A stretch of DNA of 64,000 nt from a virus (IMGVR_UViG_3300017748_000001:1-64000); one strand, 5' to 3'; positions 1,451-9,266 are shown, counted from the first letter of the stretch. Numbers and translations: made by a program. The notes: a model not told the origin generated them from the sequence alone.

Positions 1451-1479
1451 ATGCTAAGGGGCTAGATGGCAATTGTCAA
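1451..1479 (-). promoter_or_regulatory. sigma70-type (early) promoter
   Basis: TTGACA (1479-1474), 17 nt, TAGCAT (1456-1451), upstream of ATG 1421. Confidence 0.65.
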
Positions 1480-1532: not shown

Positions 1533-2372
1533 TTATAAATCCTTTTTATGCCAGTCTCTGCAGACATCCATCATTCTTTTGCGTCCTAAAAAATTAATAT
1601 CTGGATCATCCAATAAAACCTCAAATATCTTAGGTATGCCCGCATTAAGATGTAAATTTTCATGGTTCTTAATAGTAAACATTTCTAATTCTGGGAAATC
1701 CGCTCGAACTGGTTCTTTTTGACGAGGGCGATTTAGTTGAGGCCAAGTTTTATTCCAAAACAATTCCCTCACTTTAGGATCAAGATATGGAGTAACATGA
1801 ATTTTATTATATTTTTCTACAAGATTTGTGTGTTGACTTAAACCAGCACAATCTCCATCAAGATATGCAGTTCTAAACTGACTCCAAGTTACTCTTGGAG
1901 TGCCCGAAGGATTTTTTCTATGAACTTTTATATACTTCTTTGTTGTCGATATATCTCTGTATCTCTTGTATGCCTTTTTCCCTGGCTGAAAGTAACCATC
2001 AGAACCCCATCCAGTCAAAACATATTTTTGTTTTACTTCTGGATAAACATACAAAAATGGAAATACACACTCAAAGTGAGTCTTTTTTCTACATCCATGA
2101 TCTACAAGAATTTTCCAGTCATCTAGTAAATTTTCAGTTGGAACTTCTATGACAGAACAATCCCATCCCATCTTATCAGAAACTTCTTTTGCCTTAAGAG
2201 AATCATATGAAGGAGAATTTTTGAGATTAAATGTGTACGCAAAAATTCTTTTCCCTACATCTTGAGCTGCGATGGCCACAGATATAGAATCAACTCCACC
2301 AGACAACATAACTGCAACTTCACTTTCTGGCACATTGTTCTTAATGTGATCCTGCAGTATTTTTCTAATCAT
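1533..2372 (-). CDS. Asparagine-synthetase-like ATP-dependent amide ligase (synthetase domain only)
   Basis: PP-loop MLSGGVDS, LTGWGSDGYF (cf. GEGADELF) and TPYLD (cf. VPFLD). At 279 aa it has no N-terminal glutaminase domain. Confidence 0.8.
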   Translation of the reverse strand: MIRKILQDHIKNNVPESEVAVMLSGGVDSISVAIAAQDVGKRIFAYTFNLKNSPSYDSLKAKEVSDKMGWDCSVIEVPTENLLDDWKILVDHGCRKKTHFECVFPFLYVYPEVKQKYVLTGWGSDGYFQPGKKAYKRYRDISTTKKYIKVHRKNPSGTPRVTWSQFRTAYLDGDCAGLSQHTNLVEKYNKIHVTPYLDPKVRELFWNKTWPQLNRPRQKEPVRADFPELEMFTIKNHENLHLNAGIPKIFEVLLDDPDINFLGRKRMMDVCRDWHKKDL

Positions 2373-3891
2373 TAGCTAATCTTATTGGGGATGATCCGTG
2401 ACTTCGGTTTTCCTTTCTGGTCTCGACATAAGTATCAAAAGGATCAGAAGTGTAACTTTCCTTGTATGACAATTTACCATGGCCTTTTTCATAATCGCCG
2501 GTATGAAGTCTTTCGGGGTCAATTTCCGTTCCGGCTGGAGTCATCCAATCCTGACTTACTGCTGCCTCTGTTTTTTCATTATCGCTAACTACCCTAGGGC
2601 CGCGTTTTATCAAAAATTCTTCTATTTTAAAATTCTCAGTTAATAATTCGTTGCATTTTCGGGCATTTCCCATTTGTATTCCGGTTATTAATTTTTTATA
2701 CTGACTTTCTACTGAGCTTCCTGTCTTTGTAGTAGTGTACTTCTTTTTAGATTTCCAGAGTTTATTGTGCTCCTTAGTCAGCTTATCATAAAGTGCATTG
2801 AGATTTTTTTCTGGAATTACATATCCGTCGAGATACCAATATTTATAGATGTGGTAAAGATGTTGAATAACTATCTTATTCTTAATTCCCAGATATCGAC
2901 AAGAGCCTCTTTTATTTTTAGTTTTGAAAATTATGTCATCGAAAAAATGGTTAATAAACTTAATTGCAGCATTAACTTCCGAATCTTCCAGTTTATCTAT
3001 TTGGTAAATAAGGTCAAGTTTTTTGTTGGTTACTGCGGCCTTTGTCCAATCATAAATAAACATCCAAAGTAATTGTGCAAACCAAGCATCTGCCTTTCTC
3101 ATTGTCAATGCGTTATCGGTAAACCACTTACACCCTTCCTTTATAAGATATTCTTTGTATTTCTTTGGCAGTTCTCTAACCTTTTCTGCAACATAAGATG
3201 TAGAGGTGTTTCTGAACAGTTCTTTAGTAAAATGAACTCCCTCATTAATAGACCTACATATGCTAGAACATTTTTCGCGGCCAATATTAGTGAATACTAC
3301 AGTCGATATTTCGATGTGATTATGAAGATGATATTTCATCTTTTCGTCTAAAGTCGAGTATTTATCACAACTTTCGTCAACCTGTATAAGTTCGTATTTA
3401 TTGTCTGGAGTTATAACCTGATATGTCCCATGAGGAACAGTTATCTTGTCATGAATAAATCCAAGTAAAATTTTACCTTCATTTTCACCAGACGTAACAG
3501 AAGAGCCAGAAACGGTGCCAAGGGTCTCTTGTCTATTCCAAGAGTCTAAAACCATATATCCACCAGAAATACCTTCAGGAAACTTTTTTATCCACTTTTT
3601 CCAGTACTCTATATCTTCTTTTTTGTTGGCCTTCACAGCCGCTTCCCAACAACTCACAATACACGCAAATACAAAAGAAGTCACCGCGCTTCCGGACAGT
3701 AAACTTCTAATATATGCTTCAGCGTCTTTTTGAGACCAACGTCCAGAGCCACCATTTTTACTAGGAAAATCCGAATTAGCTTGATATGCTGGATCTGAAA
3801 GTAATGCAAGTGTTGCACATACATTAATATATTGTAAAAAAGTTAAAACTTCTTTTTTAGAATTTGAATAAAGATTGGTTTCGCTTTTCAT
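2365..3891 (-). CDS. DUF262 (ParB/Srx-fold, GmrSD-like) protein with degenerate C-terminal HNH-like motif
   Basis: WSQKDAEAYIRSLLSG...YMVLDSWNRQETL resembles the DUF262 DGQQR motif; the C-terminus GH...TRKENRSHG resembles HNH. Start moved to ATG 3891, which overlaps the upstream TGA (ATGA). Confidence 0.55.
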   Translation of the reverse strand: MKSETNLYSNSKKEVLTFLQYINVCATLALLSDPAYQANSDFPSKNGGSGRWSQKDAEAYIRSLLSGSAVTSFVFACIVSCWEAAVKANKKEDIEYWKKWIKKFPEGISGGYMVLDSWNRQETLGTVSGSSVTSGENEGKILLGFIHDKITVPHGTYQVITPDNKYELIQVDESCDKYSTLDEKMKYHLHNHIEISTVVFTNIGREKCSSICRSINEGVHFTKELFRNTSTSYVAEKVRELPKKYKEYLIKEGCKWFTDNALTMRKADAWFAQLLWMFIYDWTKAAVTNKKLDLIYQIDKLEDSEVNAAIKFINHFFDDIIFKTKNKRGSCRYLGIKNKIVIQHLYHIYKYWYLDGYVIPEKNLNALYDKLTKEHNKLWKSKKKYTTTKTGSSVESQYKKLITGIQMGNARKCNELLTENFKIEEFLIKRGPRVVSDNEKTEAAVSQDWMTPAGTEIDPERLHTGDYEKGHGKLSYKESYTSDPFDTYVETRKENRSHGSSPIRLAND

Positions 3892-4574
3892 TTTATAGCA
3901 ATTGCTCCTACAAATAAGTGGTTTCTCCAAAAAGGTTGGACTTCTTGAAATCCTGCTTCATACATCATGGATAGTAGATCGTCCCAGTGCATTGGTTTCA
4001 GCATGGATCTCAAAGTATACTCTTTATCCATAATATCTTCACAAGAAAACTCTTTTCTTTTGTGGTCATAAAAGAGGAATGTGAGTATCTGTTCTAGTTC
4101 TGGAGATGAGGCATAAGTCTTCTCAGAAAAAACGAATGCTCCGCCGGGAAGAAGAGAATCATATATTGAATCCAGAATAGATTGTCGATCTCGTTTTGGA
4201 ATAAACTGCAAAGTAAATATACTCGTTATGAATGAAGAGTCAACAGGAAATATAAAGTTTCTCACATCTTGAAAATGTAAACTGAGATTAGAATCAATAT
4301 ATTCTTCTTCTCTAGATTTCATATCTTCCGCAAATCCATCTGCATTTTCAACTCCATGATACTGTGCGTTAGGAGCCGATTCCTTATTCTGGTCAATCAT
4401 TGCCCCCAGAGTTTTTCCAGTAGAACAACCAATATCAACTACACTAGTATCATTTTCTACAAAGTATCTAGACATTGCAACTATATCATCATGAAGCGAT
4501 GAATAGTGACGAATAGATGCATCTATGTGAGCATCAAATCCTTCTTTTCTGTGTGCAAAAGTAAAGTCTGCCAA
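3888..4574 (-). CDS. cmoA: CmoA-like carboxy-S-adenosylmethionine synthase (class I SAM fold)
   Basis: FTF..FD.HI..SI..Y, VVDIGCSTG, FTLQF, PGGAFVFSEK, HKR and AGF..V..FW match E. coli CmoA as I recall it, over the full length. TTG start directly after the MTase stop, with a GGAG SD. Confidence 0.8.
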   Translation of the reverse strand: MADFTFAHRKEGFDAHIDASIRHYSSLHDDIVAMSRYFVENDTSVVDIGCSTGKTLGAMIDQNKESAPNAQYHGVENADGFAEDMKSREEEYIDSNLSLHFQDVRNFIFPVDSSFITSIFTLQFIPKRDRQSILDSIYDSLLPGGAFVFSEKTYASSPELEQILTFLFYDHKRKEFSCEDIMDKEYTLRSMLKPMHWDDLLSMMYEAGFQEVQPFWRNHLFVGAIAIK

Positions 4575-5762
4575 TTAAATTTTCTCCAATACATTTTCAT
4601 AGATAGACGCAGCAATTGACTGCATCATTTTTGGCGGAACCATTCTACCAATTCTTTCTGATTTCTGGTTCCATTTTCCGGTCAACTTAAAGTCATCAGG
4701 TAAACTCTGAATCCTCTTCAATTCGCCCAGAGTGAGTTTTCTAGGTTCTGCCCAATGGAATGCACCTGCTGTGGTGTCATTACTCCCCATCGCCGTTAGC
4801 GTGGGTGCTGGGGCGTATCTGGATACTCTTTTGAGGTTAAAGTGGTGTCCCTTCGGATGATAGTCCATTCCAGTCAAAACTTTCTTCGGATCGTCTTCCA
4901 TCTTACTTCCGGTCTGTAACCAATACGCAGTTTTACTAAACTTCTCTGTGAGATAATCAACTTCTTCTTGGTCATATTCTAAATCTATCAGAGCGTCCAT
5001 CAGGGGAATTACATCTCTAGATGGTTGTGGGAAAATATTTCCAACAGTCATAAAATTAAGACCAGCCTTCTCAGTAATGTCATTTCTAACACCGATAAAG
5101 ATGACCCTAGTTCTTGTCTGAGAAACACCATAGTATCTTGCGTCCATGACTTGAGATGAAACATCATATCCTATCTTTTCGAACTCGTTAAGAATTTTAT
5201 TATAGTATTGTTTCGCCTCGCCAATGGTTAGTCCTTTAACATTCTCCGCAACAATAACTTTTGGCTTGATGTCATTTGCAACTCTAAGGAACTCAAAGAA
5301 AAGATCTTCGATATTCTCTACCATCTTCCCATCAGAATAATTCTTGGTCTGACCCCAGCCATCGGAATGTTTTCCAGACACATTGACTATAGTTGTTTCT
5401 CCAAATAGATCAACCATCTCTTCCTTTTTAACATTGTGAGATAGTTTCCCTGCAACCGAAAATGCGGAACACGGTGGCGAACCGTCAAGGATATCTAACT
5501 CGCCTACATCCAATCCGACAATATCCAGAAAGTCTGATCCACTCAACTCTTTAATATCATTAGGTAGTATAGGAGTATTTGGGTAGTTTTCTGCATAGGT
5601 ATTTTGTGCTTCTTCGACAAATTCGTTCACACACAATACATTACCGCCAGCTAGACGATAACCAGTACTAGAACCACCGCCTCCTGCAAATGTGGATATG
5701 ACGTTAAACTTATTTTGTGCGGATGCAGTAAATACATCCTTAAGGGTATAAGGCTGATACAT
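4575..5762 (-). CDS. C5-cytosine DNA methyltransferase family enzyme, probable carboxymethyltransferase
   Basis: Motif I FAGGGG, IV GSPPC, VI ENV, VIII YGVSQTRTR; motif X is GRMVPP instead of GN(A/S)VP. Start placed at ATG 5762 from the promoter geometry (alternatives 5771 and 5798). Confidence 0.9.
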   Translation of the reverse strand: MYQPYTLKDVFTASAQNKFNVISTFAGGGGSSTGYRLAGGNVLCVNEFVEEAQNTYAENYPNTPILPNDIKELSGSDFLDIVGLDVGELDILDGSPPCSAFSVAGKLSHNVKKEEMVDLFGETTIVNVSGKHSDGWGQTKNYSDGKMVENIEDLFFEFLRVANDIKPKVIVAENVKGLTIGEAKQYYNKILNEFEKIGYDVSSQVMDARYYGVSQTRTRVIFIGVRNDITEKAGLNFMTVGNIFPQPSRDVIPLMDALIDLEYDQEEVDYLTEKFSKTAYWLQTGSKMEDDPKKVLTGMDYHPKGHHFNLKRVSRYAPAPTLTAMGSNDTTAGAFHWAEPRKLTLGELKRIQSLPDDFKLTGKWNQKSERIGRMVPPKMMQSIAASIYENVLEKI

Positions 5763-5769
5763 AGTATTC

Positions 5770-5798
5770 ATTATCTCAAATTTTTTAGTCGTTGTCAA
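5770..5798 (-). promoter_or_regulatory. sigma70-type promoter of the modification operon (probably leaderless)
   Basis: TTGACA (5798-5793), 17 nt, GATAAT (5775-5770), 7 nt, ATG 5762. Confidence 0.7.
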
Positions 5799-5973
5799 GT
5801 TTTATTTCTACCGAGAAATTGTTGATATATTCTTTCATAAATCTACGGATCTCTCTGGATGCACTTGAGTCGTTTAGTTCGCACAGGGCAATAAACTTTT
5901 TCTTCTCTTCTTTATTGACTTTTATTAGCAGAGTAGAATCTTTTTTCTTAATGTCCAGATCTATTCCATCCAT
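5785..5973 (-). CDS. Small ribbon-helix-helix (CopG-like) DNA-binding protein
   Basis: LLIKVNKEEKKKFIALCELNDSSASREIRRFMKEYI fits the strand-helix-helix pattern; TAATG overlap with the gp46 stop. Confidence 0.6.
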   Translation of the reverse strand: MDGIDLDIKKKDSTLLIKVNKEEKKKFIALCELNDSSASREIRRFMKEYINNFSVEIKLDND

Positions 5974-7691
5974 TACTTCTCTTCCACTATCCTACTGAAG
6001 TTTTTGACTTTATCGAACTTGATGATGCTTCGGAACTTATCATACAGAATCTCTCCCTTGTGAGATATGACAAAGACATTATTTCCGCCAAGTTGATTAA
6101 GAAGTTTTAAGAACTCATCTGTTCCATTACTATCTAATGAACTATCAAATACTTCATCTAATATCAAAAGATTTGTATTTACACTATTCTTCATCTTCGC
6201 AACTTCTCTCCAAGTGAACAGTAAAGCCAAGTCGATTCGCATCTTCTCACCTTCTGAGAATGAACTATAAGAAAAGTTTTCTCTATTACGAGACTTGATG
6301 TTTTCTGAGAAGTTTTCATCCATCGTAAAGTTAACATAGAAATCCATTTGATGAAGATACTTGTTTATCAAACCATTCATAATAGGAAGATAGTACTTGA
6401 TGATAGAAGTCTTGATGCCACCATCCTTAAGAAGTGTAGAGGCAACATTTAAGTATTCTCTTTCTTCCAGAAGTTCTTCTCGCAAATTTTCTATCTTTTC
6501 TTTTTTATCTATAAACTTTTTTAGTTCCTTTCGCATCTTTGTAGTAGATGTATCCGTGGATTCAAGTTCTTCTACTTCTCTTTCATAATCCTTTATAGAA
6601 CTCTTCAGGCCTTTATTATGAGAAGTCTTTTCAGATATATCTGCAGTAAGATTAGATACCTTAGTTTGGGTGTTCAATAAGTCATCCATTCTTGCATTGA
6701 TGACTTCATACTCACTCTTAAAATCTTCTAGAGCTTGTTCTATTTCTTTTTGTTTATCCTTTCTTTCCGAAATCATCATTTCTTTGTGTGATGAATCGAC
6801 ATCCTGTTTACAAGTAGGACAATTATCAATATCGCGAAAAAACTCTTGATCTGTTTTAAGGGACTTAATCTTGGAAGTCAGTCCAGCACTAATACTATCC
6901 ATCTTGGATATTTTCTTTTGTACTGGTTTCAATTCGACAAGTGTATCATTTAACATACCGATCTTTGCATTAAGTTTTTCTACACAAGAATCATTATCAT
7001 CAATTTTTAATTGATATTCTTCTATCTTCTTCTTCGATGACTGTATGAGTTTCTTTCGGTCTTTCTTTATCTCTTCTATACTAGATTCTTGCAAATGAAT
7101 CTGATTATCTATGATGTTTCTTTCATTACTATTTTCTTTGACACTCTCTTTATGATCTATTAATCTAGATTTGAGTATCTCGTTCATAGAAGAAAATATC
7201 TTAATGTCCAGTAGATCTTCAATAATGTCTCTTCGGTCTTTTGCCGATAGTTGCATAAACGGAACAAAAGTTGCAGAACCTAGTATCACTGTTTGAGTGA
7301 AAGACTTGAAGTTAAGTTTGAGGATATTGTCTTCGAGATATTTTTGATAATCTTTTATCTTTGAATCTTGATTGATCATCTTTTTATTATGATATATCTC
7401 AAAGATGCCGGGCTTGATACCTCTACGAATCTTATACTGAGTCTTCCCTACCTTAAACTCAATCTCAATAAGACAATCTTTCTCATTAACTGAATTGGGG
7501 AGTTGTGGTTTGTTTATCTTACGGAAAGGTTTCCCAAACAATCCAAATGTTAGAGCGTCTAGAACAGTAGATTTTCCTGCTCCGTTTGCTCCAAGAATTA
7601 ATGTGGTAGGGGATTTGTCAAATAATATTTCAGTAAAATTGTCTCCAGTGGAAAGAAAATTCTTCCACCGTATTTTTTGAAATTCTAACAC
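5973..7691 (-). CDS. 46: Recombination endonuclease ATPase subunit (T4 gp46, Rad50/SbcC-like)
   Basis: Walker A GANGAGKS, zinc hook CPTC, signature FSEGE, Walker B LLILDEVFDSSLD. Confidence 0.95.
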   Translation of the reverse strand: MLEFQKIRWKNFLSTGDNFTEILFDKSPTTLILGANGAGKSTVLDALTFGLFGKPFRKINKPQLPNSVNEKDCLIEIEFKVGKTQYKIRRGIKPGIFEIYHNKKMINQDSKIKDYQKYLEDNILKLNFKSFTQTVILGSATFVPFMQLSAKDRRDIIEDLLDIKIFSSMNEILKSRLIDHKESVKENSNERNIIDNQIHLQESSIEEIKKDRKKLIQSSKKKIEEYQLKIDDNDSCVEKLNAKIGMLNDTLVELKPVQKKISKMDSISAGLTSKIKSLKTDQEFFRDIDNCPTCKQDVDSSHKEMMISERKDKQKEIEQALEDFKSEYEVINARMDDLLNTQTKVSNLTADISEKTSHNKGLKSSIKDYEREVEELESTDTSTTKMRKELKKFIDKKEKIENLREELLEEREYLNVASTLLKDGGIKTSIIKYYLPIMNGLINKYLHQMDFYVNFTMDENFSENIKSRNRENFSYSSFSEGEKMRIDLALLFTWREVAKMKNSVNTNLLILDEVFDSSLDSNGTDEFLKLLNQLGGNNVFVISHKGEILYDKFRSIIKFDKVKNFSRIVEEK

Positions 7692-8737
7692 TACGCAGGC
7701 TCTCTTAATGCAGTAATATATAAATCTTGAATCAAACCTTTAAGTCGATTCTTATCCAAATCTAAGTTATAGTCATCTATGTATCCGGAGAGAAGAGACA
7801 TAGTATCTTCTATAGATTGTGTCTCATCCATTCCTTCAAACTCGTATGTATCGTCAACTACAGATACATCAACGACATCGTTGTTGTATAATTCATCTAT
7901 CAGATTATCCAATAAATGTTGTTTTGTCTTATTTTTAACGATCACTTTAACATATTTTTTATTGTATGTCGAGTAATTTATTTGGCCGAGTTTTTCTTCA
8001 TCATAAAAGATCTTATGAAACATACGATATGGATTCTGAATGAATTCTATCTCGTTTGTGTCTGTATCATATATGTGGAAACCTCTAGGATCGTTGTAAT
8101 CAATCCAAGTTGTTTCGTAGGGGCTTCCAAGGTAATGAATATTTCCATTGTTTGATTTGTGATGGAAATGGCCAGAGCAAACCAATTCGAACTTTCGAAA
8201 CATACCAATGTCAAAACCATCTTCGCACTTGATACCGCGACTCATTTCAAATCCGGCTATCTCCAAATGACCAAAGAGAGTTGTTGCTTCAGAGTCCCTG
8301 ATATGAGTTTTGCATATATCATAGTTTCCAGAATTAATCCACGGCATGAAACAAATATCTCTGCCGTCGAAATTGAGAGTTTCTGGATCAGTATAAACTT
8401 TAGGAGCATACTCATGATTGAAGTCTATCAGTTCATTCATAGAATTGATATCATTCGTATTCTTAAAATAGGTATCATGATTTCCGATAATGATATGAGT
8501 TTCTATCTTATCATTTTGCAATCTTTTCATGAAACGAGTATTCATCCCATGAAGGATATTGAAGTTGATAAACTTTCGTCTATCCACAACATCCCCCAAA
8601 TGAATCATCGTAGTAATATTGTTCTCTGACAGATATGGAAAAAACACATTGTCATAGAACTCCATCATGTAATCAAAGAAGACTAGGGAATCCCCCCTAG
8701 CTCCAAAATGAGTATCAGTCAAGAGGGCTATTTTCAT
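7691..8737 (-). CDS. 47: Recombination endonuclease nuclease subunit (T4 gp47, Mre11/SbcD-like)
   Basis: DTHFG, GDVVD, GNHD, GH and SGHFH phosphoesterase motifs; start placed at MKIALLTD (ATG 8737). Confidence 0.95.
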   Translation of the reverse strand: MKIALLTDTHFGARGDSLVFFDYMMEFYDNVFFPYLSENNITTMIHLGDVVDRRKFINFNILHGMNTRFMKRLQNDKIETHIIIGNHDTYFKNTNDINSMNELIDFNHEYAPKVYTDPETLNFDGRDICFMPWINSGNYDICKTHIRDSEATTLFGHLEIAGFEMSRGIKCEDGFDIGMFRKFELVCSGHFHHKSNNGNIHYLGSPYETTWIDYNDPRGFHIYDTDTNEIEFIQNPYRMFHKIFYDEEKLGQINYSTYNKKYVKVIVKNKTKQHLLDNLIDELYNNDVVDVSVVDDTYEFEGMDETQSIEDTMSLLSGYIDDYNLDLDKNRLKGLIQDLYITALREPA

Positions 8738-9266
8738 TCTGTTCCTTTTTCTTCGCTTTTGCTCTGGTCTTCTTAGTCTTCTCAGATTTCTCAAAGTCTT
8801 CAATAAATCCAGACATATTATTTTGCATGAACTCTAGATAACTTTTCTTAGTCACTCCACCTGCCTCAAGTATGTCATCTTCTAAGACATGGCGTTCAAG
8901 AGATTTGTACTTAACATAAGTCTGTTTTTTCTCTTTCTGCATCCTTCTTATAAAGGCATAGTAAATTATCTGAGTAAAATATGCAAAGGGGTTTTTAGAT
9001 TTCTCTGGATTAAAGTTATCTATGTATAGAAGACAGTTCTCTATTCCATCAGAAATCATTTCATCTTTATATGTGTAGTTAATAAAGTTGGGGCGATACG
9101 AAAGATGATTAGAAATCTTCATAATACATTCTCCAATGTAATTGGGAATTCTAGGCCTCGGATTGCCTTTCTCTTTCGCATCAATGACAGAATTGCGAAA
9201 TTCTATCATTGCAGAAAGGAGTTGCTTATTATCTACATAGTGTGCGTTTTTCTTTTTTTCTGCCAT
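8715..9266 (-). CDS. 55: Late-transcription sigma factor (T4 gp55)
   Basis: HYVDNKQL, PNFINYTYKDEMISDGIENCL, NPFAYFTQIIYYAF; start ATG 9266 (MAEKKK). Confidence 0.95.
   Translation of the reverse strand: MAEKKKNAHYVDNKQLLSAMIEFRNSVIDAKEKGNPRPRIPNYIGECIMKISNHLSYRPNFINYTYKDEMISDGIENCLLYIDNFNPEKSKNPFAYFTQIIYYAFIRRMQKEKKQTYVKYKSLERHVLEDDILEAGGVTKKSYLEFMQNNMSGFIEDFEKSEKTKKTRAKAKKKEQNENSPLD

What the first reader, a model, noticed from the sequence alone, without database searches (positions are those of the whole stretch)
1533..5798. Phage operon for carboxy-SAM-dependent cytosine hypermodification (MTase, CmoA, DUF262/HNH, amide ligase)
Seen: four genes that abut or overlap (TAA-TTG at 4575/4574, ATGA at 3891/3888, 8-nt overlap at 2372/2365) behind their own sigma70 promoter. 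They encode a C5-MTase-fold enzyme, a full-length CmoA homolog, a DUF262/HNH-like protein and an AsnB synthetase-only ligase. Known: CmoA makes carboxy-SAM from SAM and prephenate for tRNA cmo5U, and AsnB-type domains amidate carboxylates using ATP. Inference: the phage makes Cx-SAM, writes 5-carboxymethylcytosine into its DNA, then amidates the carboxyl to give a hypermodified base that blocks restriction. I recall a similar three-gene logic reported recently for a marine cyanophage but cannot verify it here. The variant with an embedded DUF262/HNH gene and an upstream RHH regulator may be the undescribed part.
Basis: partly seen in the sequence, partly recalled or inferred. Interest (0 to 1): 0.92.

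Follow-up and report, generated by a model that had tools for sequence, protein, structure and literature searches.

The report
Phage carboxymethylcytosine operon with swappable nuclease
This marine phage carries the cytosine hypermodification pathway published in December 2025 (carboxy-SAM, then 5-carboxymethylcytosine, then an amide), and the only new feature is a ParB-like nuclease gene in a fast-swapping position just before the amide-ligase gene.

Summary
Four abutting or overlapping minus-strand genes at 1533-5798 encode a C5-methyltransferase-fold enzyme, a CmoA homologue, a DUF262/ParB-like plus HNH protein, and a glutaminase-less asparagine-synthetase-type ligase.

Three of these are clear homologues of CmoX, CmoA and CmoY of Synechococcus phage S-B43 (Yang et al., Nat Commun 2025, PMC12783734). 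That system makes carboxy-SAM, writes 5-carboxymethylcytosine into DNA, and amidates it with glycine. The window's CmoX keeps the diagnostic SPPC motif and the Arg350-equivalent arginine. The core pathway is therefore already known. The amine is more likely glycine or another amino acid than ammonia.

The fourth gene is not in that paper. It is a divergent ParB-fold/DUF262, helical, HNH protein with GmrSD/SspE/BrxU-like architecture. In about 70 related viral contigs, the position directly 5' of cmoY is almost always occupied. The occupant switches between unrelated families, mainly DUF262-HNH and GIY-YIG plus ParB-like, even between genomes whose flanks are about 98.8% identical.

I favour a modification-keyed self/non-self nuclease. 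A selfish homing endonuclease or a DpdB-like helper NTPase remains possible.

The RHH gene is not conserved with the cassette. The TTG at 5798 is a promoter -35 box, so CmoX probably starts at ATG 5762.

This scan found the same pathway before on another genome (e1-5835101).

The parts
5785..5973 (-). 62-aa ORF, weakly ribbon-helix-helix-like, directly after the SbcC/gp46-like gene. It is not conserved with the cassette elsewhere.
   Evidence: Pfam RHH_9 E 0.005, below cut-off, and phrog_19878 E 4e-10 with unknown function. tblastn finds it only in contigs of the same phage, L006-L009.
5770..5798 (-). Sigma70-like promoter TTGACA-17-TGaGATAAT. It lies inside the 3' end of the 62-aa ORF, 7 nt upstream of the CmoX ATG, so the mRNA would be leaderless or nearly so.
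   Evidence: 11 of 12 consensus matches with an extended -10 TG; sequence read. The region as a whole holds no more promoter-like sites than shuffled sequence (13 against a mean of 18), so this is a consensus match and not proof of function.
4575..5762 (-). CmoX: DNA cytosine C5-carboxymethyltransferase homologue, 395 aa from ATG 5762. The open frame runs on to TTG 5798.
   Evidence: Pfam DNA_methylase E 4e-57. PDB 8YF3 (SpCmoX) E 1.5e-144 over residues 15-407. SPPC, ENV, QxRxR and GRMVPP (Arg350 equivalent) are all present. 59% identity to S-B43 CmoX.
3888..4574 (-). CmoA: carboxy-SAM synthase homologue, 228 aa, TTG start abutting the CmoX stop.
   Evidence: TIGR00740 E 1.2e-26 over 227 of 239 profile positions. 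PDB CmoA structures 4GEK and 1IM8 at E about 3e-18, full length. 51% identity to the biochemically verified SpCmoA, with the same variant motif IMDKE..LR. phrog_4752 E 1e-56.
2365..3891 (-). 508-aa ParB-fold/DUF262-like domain, helical linker and C-terminal HNH nuclease domain, with GmrSD/SspE/BrxU-like architecture. It occupies the hypervariable slot 5' of cmoY.
   Evidence: Family of 81 clusters at 50% identity. GmrSD_N and HNH hits in family members. AF2 model pLDDT 91. Fold matches. Invariant or near-invariant residues W52, D116, N119, R120 (DSWNR, matching the DGQQR motif), N216, H471 and N495.
1533..2372 (-). CmoY-like ATP-dependent amide ligase, 279 aa. It is the synthetase domain only (PP-loop SGGVDS) and carries an 18-aa basic insert that S-B43 CmoY lacks.
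   Evidence: Pfam Asn_synthase E 7e-16. 43-45% identity to SpCmoY and 57-64% to ligases in related contigs. The insert is shared with L002 and L012.
1451..1479 (-). Promoter-like site (TTGACA-17-TAGCAT) after cmoY and ahead of the next gene (phrog_459, annotated as peptidase). It marks the likely 3' limit of the operon.
   Evidence: consensus match only.

Best explanation
The cluster belongs to an uncultured marine T4-like myovirus. It is a four-gene version of the CmoA/CmoX/CmoY DNA hypermodification pathway.

Inferred by homology to an experimentally characterised system:
- CmoA converts SAM and host prephenate into carboxy-SAM.
- CmoX is a C5-methyltransferase-fold enzyme whose motif-X asparagine is replaced by arginine. 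It uses its SPPC cysteine to attack C6 and transfers the carboxymethyl group to C5 of cytosines in duplex phage DNA after replication, giving 5-carboxymethylcytosine.
- CmoY adenylates that carboxylate and joins an amine to it. [quoted passage not shown] The fourth protein has a ParB/DUF262-type domain with a conserved nucleotide-binding motif, a helical linker and an HNH nuclease domain. It is translationally coupled between cmoA and cmoY. It is one allele of a near-universally occupied, rapidly exchanged gene slot directly 5' of cmoY.

My preferred reading of this protein is a modification-keyed nuclease, at about 40-45%. Like GmrSD, SspE or BrxU, it would use the ParB-like domain to read the DNA's modification state and the HNH domain to cut. 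It would spare the phage's own amidated DNA and attack host DNA, or the DNA of competing phages that is modified differently. That role would be analogous to T4 EndoII and EndoIV acting on unmodified cytosine DNA.
For: Pathway assignment.
- The pathway is shown experimentally in S-B43 (PMC12783734).
- The window's CmoX matches the SpCmoX crystal structure sequence at E 1.5e-144 and keeps SPPC, the Arg350 equivalent, ENV and QxRxR.
- CmoA is full-length, 51% identical to SpCmoA and shares its variant motif. SpCmoA itself also scores below the TIGR00740 cut-off.
- CmoY is 43-45% identical to SpCmoY, has the PP-loop and lacks a glutaminase domain.
- The three genes co-occur in about 70 IMG/VR contigs.

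Fourth gene, identity.
- Family-level GmrSD_N and HNH hits.
- Fold matches to Cas9 HNH (Z 9.0) and to SspE, BrxU and ParB (Z about 7).
- Profile hit to Cas9 HNH at E 2.8e-6.
- Conserved DxxNR motif, His471 and Asn495.

Fourth gene, function rather than hitch-hiking.
- The slot 5' of cmoY is occupied in 67 of the 71 contigs with upstream sequence.
- Two unrelated families fill most of the slots and both pair a ParB-like domain with a nuclease domain. Family A is DUF262-HNH. Family B is GIY-YIG plus ParB-N.
- The slot gene stays next to cmoY in four different gene orders: pol-slot-Y-X-A; X-A-slot-Y in the window; X-A-slot-Y-pol in L132; MazG-slot-Y-X-A in L067.
- Cmo-linked family A members cluster on the family tree. 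They need 2 label changes against 15 expected by shuffling, and a single clade is not rejected (p-AU 0.35).
- A classical small HNH homing endonuclease, by contrast, is seen once, sporadically, between cmoY and cmoX.
Against: - No biochemistry was done for this phage.
- The amine substrate cannot be read from sequence, because the paper names the glycine-binding residues only in a figure. This CmoY also has an 18-aa insert that SpCmoY lacks.
- The nuclease role is inference only.
- S-B43 makes the full modification with three genes and has no slot gene. Three surveyed contigs have the polymerase directly next to cmoY. The fourth gene is therefore dispensable for the chemistry.
- The window subclade has lost the PH..GG part of the family's HNH consensus, and the structural Asn is Asp, so activity may be altered.
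- Clean allele swaps between near-identical genomes and the use of HNH and GIY-YIG domains also fit selfish homing endonucleases.
- The slot families d15 and d21 show no recognisable nuclease domain.
- There are no hits to known defence-system models.
Confidence: 0.8

Rival explanations
1. The DUF262-HNH gene is a selfish, freestanding homing-endonuclease-like element. It has settled next to cmoY, spreads by cutting genomes that lack it or carry another allele near that site, and has no role in the modification system or its use.
For: - HNH and GIY-YIG are the two nuclease folds of freestanding homing endonucleases in T4-like phages (established knowledge).
- The slot shows clean whole-gene replacement at gene boundaries between genomes whose flanks are 98.7-98.8% identical (L098 against L099).
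- The slot type changes 24 times on a 71-row CmoY tree.
- Family A members also sit at other intergenic positions of the replication module in about 75 contigs that have no Cmo genes.
- The cassette is demonstrably invaded by a classical HNH homing endonuclease in L119.
- S-B43 works without the gene.
- An earlier follow-up on another genome (e1-5835101) read the inserted nuclease there as selfish.
Against: - Occupancy is near-universal rather than presence/absence.
- The proteins are 350-550 aa and carry a conserved ParB-type nucleotide-binding motif typical of regulated defence nucleases. They lack the NUMOD or HTH DNA-binding modules seen in the true homing endonuclease of L119.
- Two unrelated families converge on a ParB-like domain plus a nuclease domain.
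- All copies seen are intact and translationally coupled to cmoY.
Confidence: 0.3
2. The protein is a DpdB-like accessory NTPase. Its ParB-fold domain loads on DNA and uses NTP hydrolysis to help CmoY, or CmoX, reach and flip target bases. The HNH domain would be vestigial or a DNA-binding module.
For: - DpdB is a ParB-fold DGQQR ATPase with a helical C-terminal domain. It is required for DpdA to insert preQ0 into DNA (PMC10164549).
- The ParB-like motif residues D116, N119 and R120 are invariant, whereas the HNH motif is partly eroded in the window's subclade.
- ParB-like sequence motifs are suggested in the nuclease-less slot families d15 and d21 by reading the alignment consensus only.
- Yang et al. 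note ParBc-domain proteins in 1,660 CmoX contigs, with unknown function.
- The gene is tightly coupled to cmoY.
Against: - SpCmoX and SpCmoY work in vitro and in E. coli without any such partner.
- The general-base His and the metal-binding Asn of the HNH motif are retained across the family.
- Family B adds a GIY-YIG nuclease domain instead. That is hard to explain if nuclease activity is irrelevant.
- A helper would not be expected to be swapped for unrelated genes between near-identical genomes.
Confidence: 0.15
3. One reading: the ligase uses ammonia and makes the primary amide, 5-carbamoylmethylcytosine, rather than an amino-acid conjugate.
For: - The enzyme has no glutaminase domain and could take free ammonia.
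- It carries an 18-aa insert and is only 43-45% identical to the glycine ligase.
- Yang et al. expect other amine substrates in other ligase clusters.
Against: - The only characterised relative attaches glycine. The paper's largest ligase cluster, linked at about 30% identity, is predicted to bind an alpha-amino-acid carboxylate. This protein is well above that identity to SpCmoY.
- The cluster the paper predicts to use ammonia carries a glutaminase domain, which is absent here.
Confidence: 0.15
4. The cluster is an ordinary 5-methylcytosine methyltransferase next to a tRNA-modifying CmoA, with no DNA carboxymethylation.
For: Generic annotation pipelines call the genes 'DNA methyltransferase' and 'tRNA methyltransferase'.
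Against: - The Arg that replaces the motif-X Asn is present. In SpCmoX the wild-type enzyme accepts only Cx-SAM.
- The paper notes that S-B43 has no CmoB partner for tRNA work. I did not search this phage for CmoB.
- The three genes are linked in about 70 contigs.
Confidence: 0.03

Closest known systems
CmoA-CmoX-CmoY system of Synechococcus phage S-B43 (Yang et al., Nat Commun 2025, PMC12783734; CmoX structure PDB 8YF3)
   Same: It has the same three enzyme families, with 59%, 51% and 43-45% identity. The diagnostic CmoX residues (SPPC, Arg350 equivalent) are the same, and so is the predicted chemistry: Cx-SAM, then 5cxmC, then an amide. Both sit in T4-like marine myoviruses near replication genes.
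   Different: The gene order is X-A-slot-Y here and X-Y-A in S-B43. A 508-aa ParB-like/HNH gene is embedded here and absent from S-B43, and the paper does not discuss it. CmoY here has an 18-aa basic insert and CmoX has 17-aa and 6-aa inserts. The host is unknown: the closest cultured relatives by capsid region are Methylophilales phage Melnitz and cyanomyoviruses, at about 69% nucleotide identity.
GmrSD-family type IV restriction enzymes and relatives (BrxU, PDB 7P9K; SspE, PDB 6JIV)
   Same: The domain logic is the same: an N-terminal DUF262/ParB-fold domain with a DGQQR-type motif, a helical middle and a C-terminal His-Me-finger nuclease. Fold matches are Z 7.1-7.5. Family members hit Pfam GmrSD_N.
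   Different: The C-terminal domain is a Cas9-like HNH, not DUF1524. The motif is DSWNR, not DGQQR. The protein is encoded by a lytic phage inside its own modification operon, not by a bacterial defence island. There is no PADLOC hit. Whether it needs or avoids modified DNA is unknown.
DpdB of the bacterial Dpd 7-deazaguanine DNA modification system (PMC10164549)
   Same: It is a ParB-fold protein with a DGQQR-type motif and a helical C-terminal part, encoded next to a DNA base-modifying enzyme.
   Different: DpdB lacks a nuclease motif and is needed for the modification. Here an HNH domain is present, and the homologous pathway works without such a protein.
T4 EndoII (DenA, GIY-YIG) and EndoIV (DenB): phage nucleases that cut unmodified cytosine DNA and spare the phage's hydroxymethylated DNA
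   Same: The proposed logic is the same: a phage nuclease whose self/non-self discrimination rests on the phage's own cytosine modification. The family B slot proteins have a GIY-YIG domain, and T4 EndoII is among its fold matches (Z 4.7).
   Different: There is no sequence relationship to the window's HNH protein. T4 modifies at the nucleotide-pool level and replaces all cytosines, whereas CmoX acts after replication at a short motif. This resemblance is functional inference only.

Membership tests
CmoX (phage DNA cytosine C5-carboxymethyltransferase) | SPPC catalytic motif (S95-P96-P97-C98 in SpCmoX) | tested here: met
   The query reads ...LDGSPPCSAFS..., aligned to SpCmoX residues 95-98.
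CmoX (phage DNA cytosine C5-carboxymethyltransferase) | Arginine at the SpCmoX R350 position, replacing the motif-X Asn of methyltransferases; it binds the Cx-SAM carboxylate | tested here: met
   The query's IGRMVPP aligns with SpCmoX VGRMVPP. Counting back from residue 372 in the alignment places that R at position 350.
CmoX (phage DNA cytosine C5-carboxymethyltransferase) | Conserved Glu (ENV) and Arg (QxRxR) that contact cytosine N4 and O2; overall C5-MTase fold | tested here: met
   AENVKG and SQTRTR are present. Pfam DNA_methylase E 4e-57.
CmoX (phage DNA cytosine C5-carboxymethyltransferase) | Transfers carboxymethyl from Cx-SAM, not methyl from SAM, to DNA cytosine | not testable with these tools
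   This needs an enzyme assay or nucleoside LC-MS.
CmoA (carboxy-SAM synthase) | Full-length homology to a verified Cx-SAM synthase | tested here: met
   51% identity over the full length to SpCmoA. E about 3e-18 to E. coli and H. influenzae CmoA structures over residues 2-228.
CmoA (carboxy-SAM synthase) | Score above NCBIfam equivalog cut-off (TIGR00740, 193.3 bits) | tested here: not met
   93.8 bits. The biochemically verified SpCmoA also fails at 115.6 bits, so the cut-off is tuned to the bacterial tRNA enzyme and does not exclude the activity.
CmoY (ATP-dependent 5cxmC amide ligase) | Asn-synthetase-type synthetase domain with the PP-loop SGGxDS and no N-terminal glutaminase domain | tested here: met
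   SGGVDS at residues 24-29. The protein is 279 aa, and the Pfam Asn_synthase match starts at residue 3.
CmoY (ATP-dependent 5cxmC amide ligase) | Sequence link to SpCmoY at or above the paper's cluster threshold (about 30% identity) | tested here: met
   43% by tblastn and 45% in the MAFFT alignment.
CmoY (ATP-dependent 5cxmC amide ligase) | Pocket residues that bind the glycine carboxylate | not testable with these tools
   The residues are shown only in a supplementary figure and are not named in the text held.
GmrSD family (type IV restriction endonuclease) | N-terminal DUF262 (Pfam GmrSD_N) domain with the DGQQR motif | tested here: inconclusive
   The window protein has no Pfam hit of its own. 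Ten of 45 family members hit GmrSD_N. The motif here is DSWNR, with D, N and R invariant in the family. The fold matches SspE, BrxU and ParB at Z about 7.
GmrSD family (type IV restriction endonuclease) | C-terminal DUF1524 His-Me nuclease domain | tested here: not met
   The C-terminal domain is a Cas9-type HNH: Pfam HNH, HNH_4 or HNH_5 in family members, Z 9.0 to the GeoCas9 HNH domain, profile E 2.8e-6. It is therefore GmrSD-like in logic and not a member.
HNH (His-Me finger) nuclease | General-base His and metal-binding Asn or His on a beta-beta-alpha fold | tested here: met
   H471 and N495 are nearly invariant in the family. The structural Asn is Asp in this subclade and the PH..GG segment is lost. 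The fold match has rmsd 1.8 A over 72 residues. Catalytic activity was not tested.
Freestanding homing endonuclease of T4-like phages | Sporadic presence or absence between conserved genes in otherwise similar genomes | tested here: inconclusive
   The slot is almost always filled, so it is not a presence/absence site. Its occupant is nevertheless swapped between near-identical genomes.

The most novel reading that the evidence does not exclude
The position 5' of cmoY is a dedicated, fast-evolving 'reader-nuclease' locus of the carboxymethylcytosine hypermodification system. Unrelated ParB-like/nuclease fusions (DUF262-HNH, GIY-YIG-ParB and others) are exchanged between near-identical phages. 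Each would act as a modification-keyed weapon that spares DNA carrying the phage's own amide mark and destroys host DNA or the DNA of rival phages. In effect this would be a phage-borne restriction-modification system built on a hypermodified base.
Probability: 0.35. Interest if true: 0.75.

Novelty: new variant of a known kind. Interest (0 to 1): 0.5.

Why it matters
The core pathway is published, so this window mainly adds one more uncultured marine phage to a system already surveyed in thousands of contigs.

What is new is the fourth component. A ParB-like nuclease gene is embedded in the operon, and across relatives the position in front of the ligase gene is almost always filled but keeps being swapped between unrelated nuclease and ParB-like families.

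If these proteins read the modification, they would be the first nuclease partners of a hypermodification pathway encoded by the phage itself. They would explain part of why the paper found ParB-domain proteins around CmoX. They could also yield enzymes that distinguish 5cxmC or its amides from plain cytosine, which would be useful for sequencing chemistry that already exploits carboxymethylcytosine.

If they are only homing endonucleases, the locus is still a clear natural example of competing selfish genes at one site.

Tried and rejected
Searches on the fourth gene that gave nothing directly:
- Pfam, NCBIfam, PHROGs and PADLOC on the protein itself gave no hits. Only family-level scans and the fold resolved it.
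- Foldseek against PDB gave no match at E <= 0.001. VIA-align was needed.
- A single-protein scan of viral contigs found no relatives, and the 45-sequence alignment was too diverse to seed a scan. Sub-alignments worked.

Ideas considered and rejected:
- I first thought the gene had been co-inherited with cmoY over the long term, because Cmo-linked members form one clade. The CmoY survey corrected this: slot alleles are swapped between near-identical genomes.
- From memory I expected the E. coli CmoA Arg199 position to be diagnostic. The window has Glu there, but so does the verified SpCmoA, so I dropped the criterion.
- Families A and B are not detectably homologous (hhalign E 0.25-0.57).
- The link between d15 and family B is weak (E 0.055). 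d15 and d21 have no PDB or Pfam match.
- The DruA-domain neighbour of family A in Cmo-less phages gave no functional lead.
- The RHH gene as a system regulator: rejected as a conserved part, because it is absent from all other cassettes.

Literature: searches found no paper describing a nuclease partner of the Cmo system.

Full report
OBSERVATION

The four minus-strand ORFs are real and packed as described. The first gene's stop abuts the TTG start of the second at 4575/4574. The second and third genes share an ATGA at 3891/3888, so the third gene starts at ATG 3891 and encodes 508 aa. The third and fourth genes overlap by 8 nt (2365-2372).

Pfam calls gene 1 a C5 DNA methylase (E 4e-57) and gene 4 an asparagine-synthase domain (E 7e-16). 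Gene 2 is a class-I methyltransferase that NCBIfam aligns end to end with the carboxy-SAM synthase model TIGR00740 (E 1.2e-26). Gene 3 has no hit in any HMM library.

One detail needs correcting. The best sigma70-like site in the region is TTGACA-17-TGaGATAAT at 5798-5770 (11 of 12 matches). Alignment to the S-B43 enzyme begins at residue 15 of that long form. Gene callers on near-identical contigs give 395 or 398 aa. The start is therefore ATG 5762, 7 nt after the -10 box, which would make the message nearly leaderless.

The upstream 62-aa ORF is only weakly RHH-like (E 0.005, below cut-off).

WHAT THE THREE ENZYMES ARE

A distant DNA search found the same gene trio in Synechococcus phages S-B43, S-B05 and RB11-B. 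A literature search found the paper that characterised it: Yang et al., Nat Commun 2025, PMC12783734. The paper shows the following:
- SpCmoA makes carboxy-SAM from SAM and prephenate.
- SpCmoX, a C5-MTase homologue, writes 5-carboxymethylcytosine at GC motifs and accepts only Cx-SAM.
- Arg350 replaces the motif-X Asn and contacts the carboxylate (PDB 8YF3).
- SpCmoY ligates glycine to the carboxyl in an ATP-dependent reaction.
- S-B43 virion DNA carries the glycine amide.

The window's CmoX matches the 8YF3 sequence at E 1.5e-144 and keeps SPPC, ENV, QxRxR and the GRMVPP arginine.

Its CmoA is 51% identical to SpCmoA along the whole length and shares the phage-type motif IMDKE..LR. It falls below the NCBIfam equivalog cut-off (93.8 against 193.3 bits), but the verified SpCmoA does too (115.6 bits).

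Its CmoY has the PP-loop SGGVDS and no glutaminase domain. It is 43-45% identical to SpCmoY, and it carries an 18-aa basic insert shared with some relatives but not with S-B43.

A scan of IMG/VR with a CmoY alignment returned 80 loci. Nearly all encode CmoY, CmoX and CmoA together, usually in the order Y-X-A after the DNA polymerase gene.

The paper's ammonia-predicted cluster carries a glutaminase domain, and this ligase is well within the identity range of the glycine-ligase cluster. The pocket residues are not named in the accessible text, so this could not be tested.

THE FOURTH GENE

An exhaustive profile-free search found 81 clusters (at 50% identity) of 450-500-aa relatives. The window protein itself is invisible to Pfam. 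However, 10 of 45 aligned relatives hit GmrSD_N (DUF262) and 8 hit HNH.

An AF2 model built on that alignment is confident (pLDDT 91). Its residues 436-508 superpose on Cas9 HNH domains (Z 9.0, rmsd 1.8 A over 72 residues). Its N-terminal 430 residues match SspE, BrxU (a GmrSD-family type IV enzyme), DndI and ParB-fold proteins at Z 5.3-7.5. The family profile also finds Cas9 HNH domains by sequence (E 2.8e-6).

The ParB-type nucleotide-binding motif is conserved: DSWNR here and DSNNR or DGNNR in the family, with D116, N119 and R120 invariant. The HNH general-base His471 and Asn495 are also conserved. The window's subclade has lost the PH..GG stretch and has Asp for the structural Asn.

The protein has GmrSD-like logic but is not a GmrSD member, because the nuclease domain is HNH rather than DUF1524.

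CONTEXT OF THE FOURTH GENE

A 43%-identical homologue lies directly upstream of cmoY, and overlaps it, in a different lineage where the order is pol-slot-Y-X-A. A 25%-identical one does the same in L067.

About 75 other family members sit in marine T4-like contigs without any Cmo genes. They are usually next to a DruA-domain protein, the DNA polymerase, a Dam methylase or a 2OG oxygenase. On the family tree, the 17 distinct Cmo-linked members need only two label changes, against 15 for shuffled labels. A single clade is not rejected (p-AU 0.35). Long branches are a caveat.

The CmoY survey changed my picture. Among the 71 contigs that had upstream sequence, the gene directly 5' of cmoY is:
- family A (DUF262-HNH) in 21;
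- a second family B in 21;
- one of two unknown families, d15 (9) or d21 (6);
- a second Asn-synthase-like ligase in 3;
- a 143-aa ORF in 3;
- the polymerase itself in only 3;
- cmoA itself in S-B43, whose gene order is X-Y-A and which has no slot gene;
- another singleton ORF in the remaining 4.

The two subgroups of family B are homologous to each other (hhalign probability 98%, E 7e-14) but not detectably to family A.

An AF2 model of a family B member (pLDDT 84) shows an N-terminal GIY-YIG nuclease domain. It matches I-TevI (Z 6.7), UvrC (5.9), the 5hmC-specific enzyme PD-T4-3 (5.7) and T4 EndoII (4.7). A ParB-N/sulfiredoxin-fold domain follows (Z 6.8-7.0). Both assignments fit its YLY...YVGRKH and GNHR motifs. 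These Z values are middling and should be read together with the motifs.

Two unrelated architectures thus converge on 'ParB-like domain plus nuclease' at the same position.

The slot type changes 24 times on the CmoY tree. L098 (family B) and L099 (d15) are 98.7-98.8% identical in both flanks, with breakpoints within about 20 nt of the slot gene's ends.

The slot gene stays beside cmoY in four different gene orders, including X-A-slot-Y in the window and in L132.

By contrast, a textbook HNH homing endonuclease occurs once, between cmoY and cmoX in L119. It is 295 aa and has an HHILPKSLGG motif, repeated modules and a C-terminal HTH.

Cultured phages that have only CmoX and CmoA (S-CRM01, RN05-S) have no such gene nearby.

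HOW IT MOST LIKELY WORKS

The steps CmoA to CmoX to CmoY are inferred from close homology to proven enzymes. I put that assignment at about 0.85-0.9.

For the fourth protein nothing has been shown experimentally. I weigh three readings.

1. A modification-keyed nuclease, about 40-45%. It would work like GmrSD, SspE or BrxU, but serve the phage. It would spare self DNA carrying the amide mark and attack host or rival-phage DNA, as T4 EndoII and EndoIV do with unmodified cytosine DNA. Supporting points are near-universal occupancy, convergence of two ParB-nuclease architectures, conserved catalytic and nucleotide-binding residues, linkage to cmoY across rearrangements, and arms-race-like allele turnover.

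2. A selfish homing-type endonuclease, about 30%. This fits the HNH and GIY-YIG folds and the clean swaps between near-identical genomes. An earlier follow-up on another genome (e1-5835101) took this reading. Size, architecture and occupancy argue against it.

3. A DpdB-like helper NTPase, about 15%. DpdB is a ParB-fold ATPase needed for DNA modification by DpdA (PMC10164549). However, SpCmoX and SpCmoY need no helper, and nuclease domains are retained here.

COMPARISON AND NOVELTY

The trio is a new member of a published system. The paper's own survey covers 5,615 CmoX sequences and notes ParBc-domain proteins in 1,660 contigs 'of unknown function'. It never mentions HNH, DUF262, GmrSD or nucleases. 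Further literature searches found no description of such a partner.

The embedded ParB-like/HNH gene and the hypervariable slot 5' of cmoY are therefore a new variant feature of a known kind.

The record is an IMG/VR viral contig of 126,997 nt, about 63% complete. It comes from a T4-like marine myovirus of unknown host. The closest cultured relatives by capsid region are Methylophilales phage Melnitz and cyanomyoviruses, at about 69% nucleotide identity.

VERDICT

- Observation: confirmed.
- Interpretation: supported, but the core pathway is already published.
- Interest: 0.5, carried by the undescribed nuclease slot.

Noticed in passing
L119:1783-2670 (IMG/VR contig, between cmoY and cmoX): A classical freestanding HNH homing endonuclease is inserted inside the cassette in one contig only. 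It is 295 aa and has an HHILPKSLGG motif, repeated WxEKYGIEE modules and a C-terminal HTH_17. Other sporadic small ORFs of unknown function sit between cassette genes in L145 (226 aa) and in L101, L115 and L116 (192 aa).
   Followed up: partly
L160:1092-1982, L161:5114-6004, L162:178-1068: In three contigs the slot 5' of cmoY holds a second Asn-synthase-type ligase (296 aa, Pfam Asn_synthase E 2.6e-9). This suggests two successive or alternative amide ligations on the same handle.
   Followed up: no
L071:6676-7806 and about 35 other loci: In marine T4-like contigs without Cmo genes, the DUF262-HNH family gene is most often preceded by a 376-aa DruA-domain protein (PF14236 E 3e-10; phrog_19197 E 1e-160). 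The function of this conserved pair is unknown.
   Followed up: partly
window 5762-5798: The CmoX ATG lies 7 nt after the -10 box of a near-consensus extended -10 promoter and has no Shine-Dalgarno sequence. The message may be leaderless, or translation may rely on read-through from the SbcC-like gene upstream.
   Followed up: no
L001:8385-8792, L012:5434-5811, L067:1470-1847, L114:7617-8021: A MazG-type nucleotide pyrophosphohydrolase (about 130 aa, PF03819 E 9e-9) recurs next to the Cmo cassette in several lineages, including S-B43. It is absent from the window's cluster.
   Followed up: no
window 5973-8803 and 3-1439: The cassette is flanked by T4 gp46/gp47-like SbcC and SbcD recombination nuclease genes upstream and by a large phrog_459 'peptidase' gene plus an AAA_5 ATPase downstream. 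In most relatives the cassette instead follows the DNA polymerase gene, so it has moved within the replication module.
   Followed up: partly
window 1533-2372, CmoY residues about 137-160: An 18-aa lysine- and arginine-rich insert is present in the window, L002 and L012 ligases but absent from S-B43 and L067. It could contact DNA or change the amine pocket.
   Followed up: no
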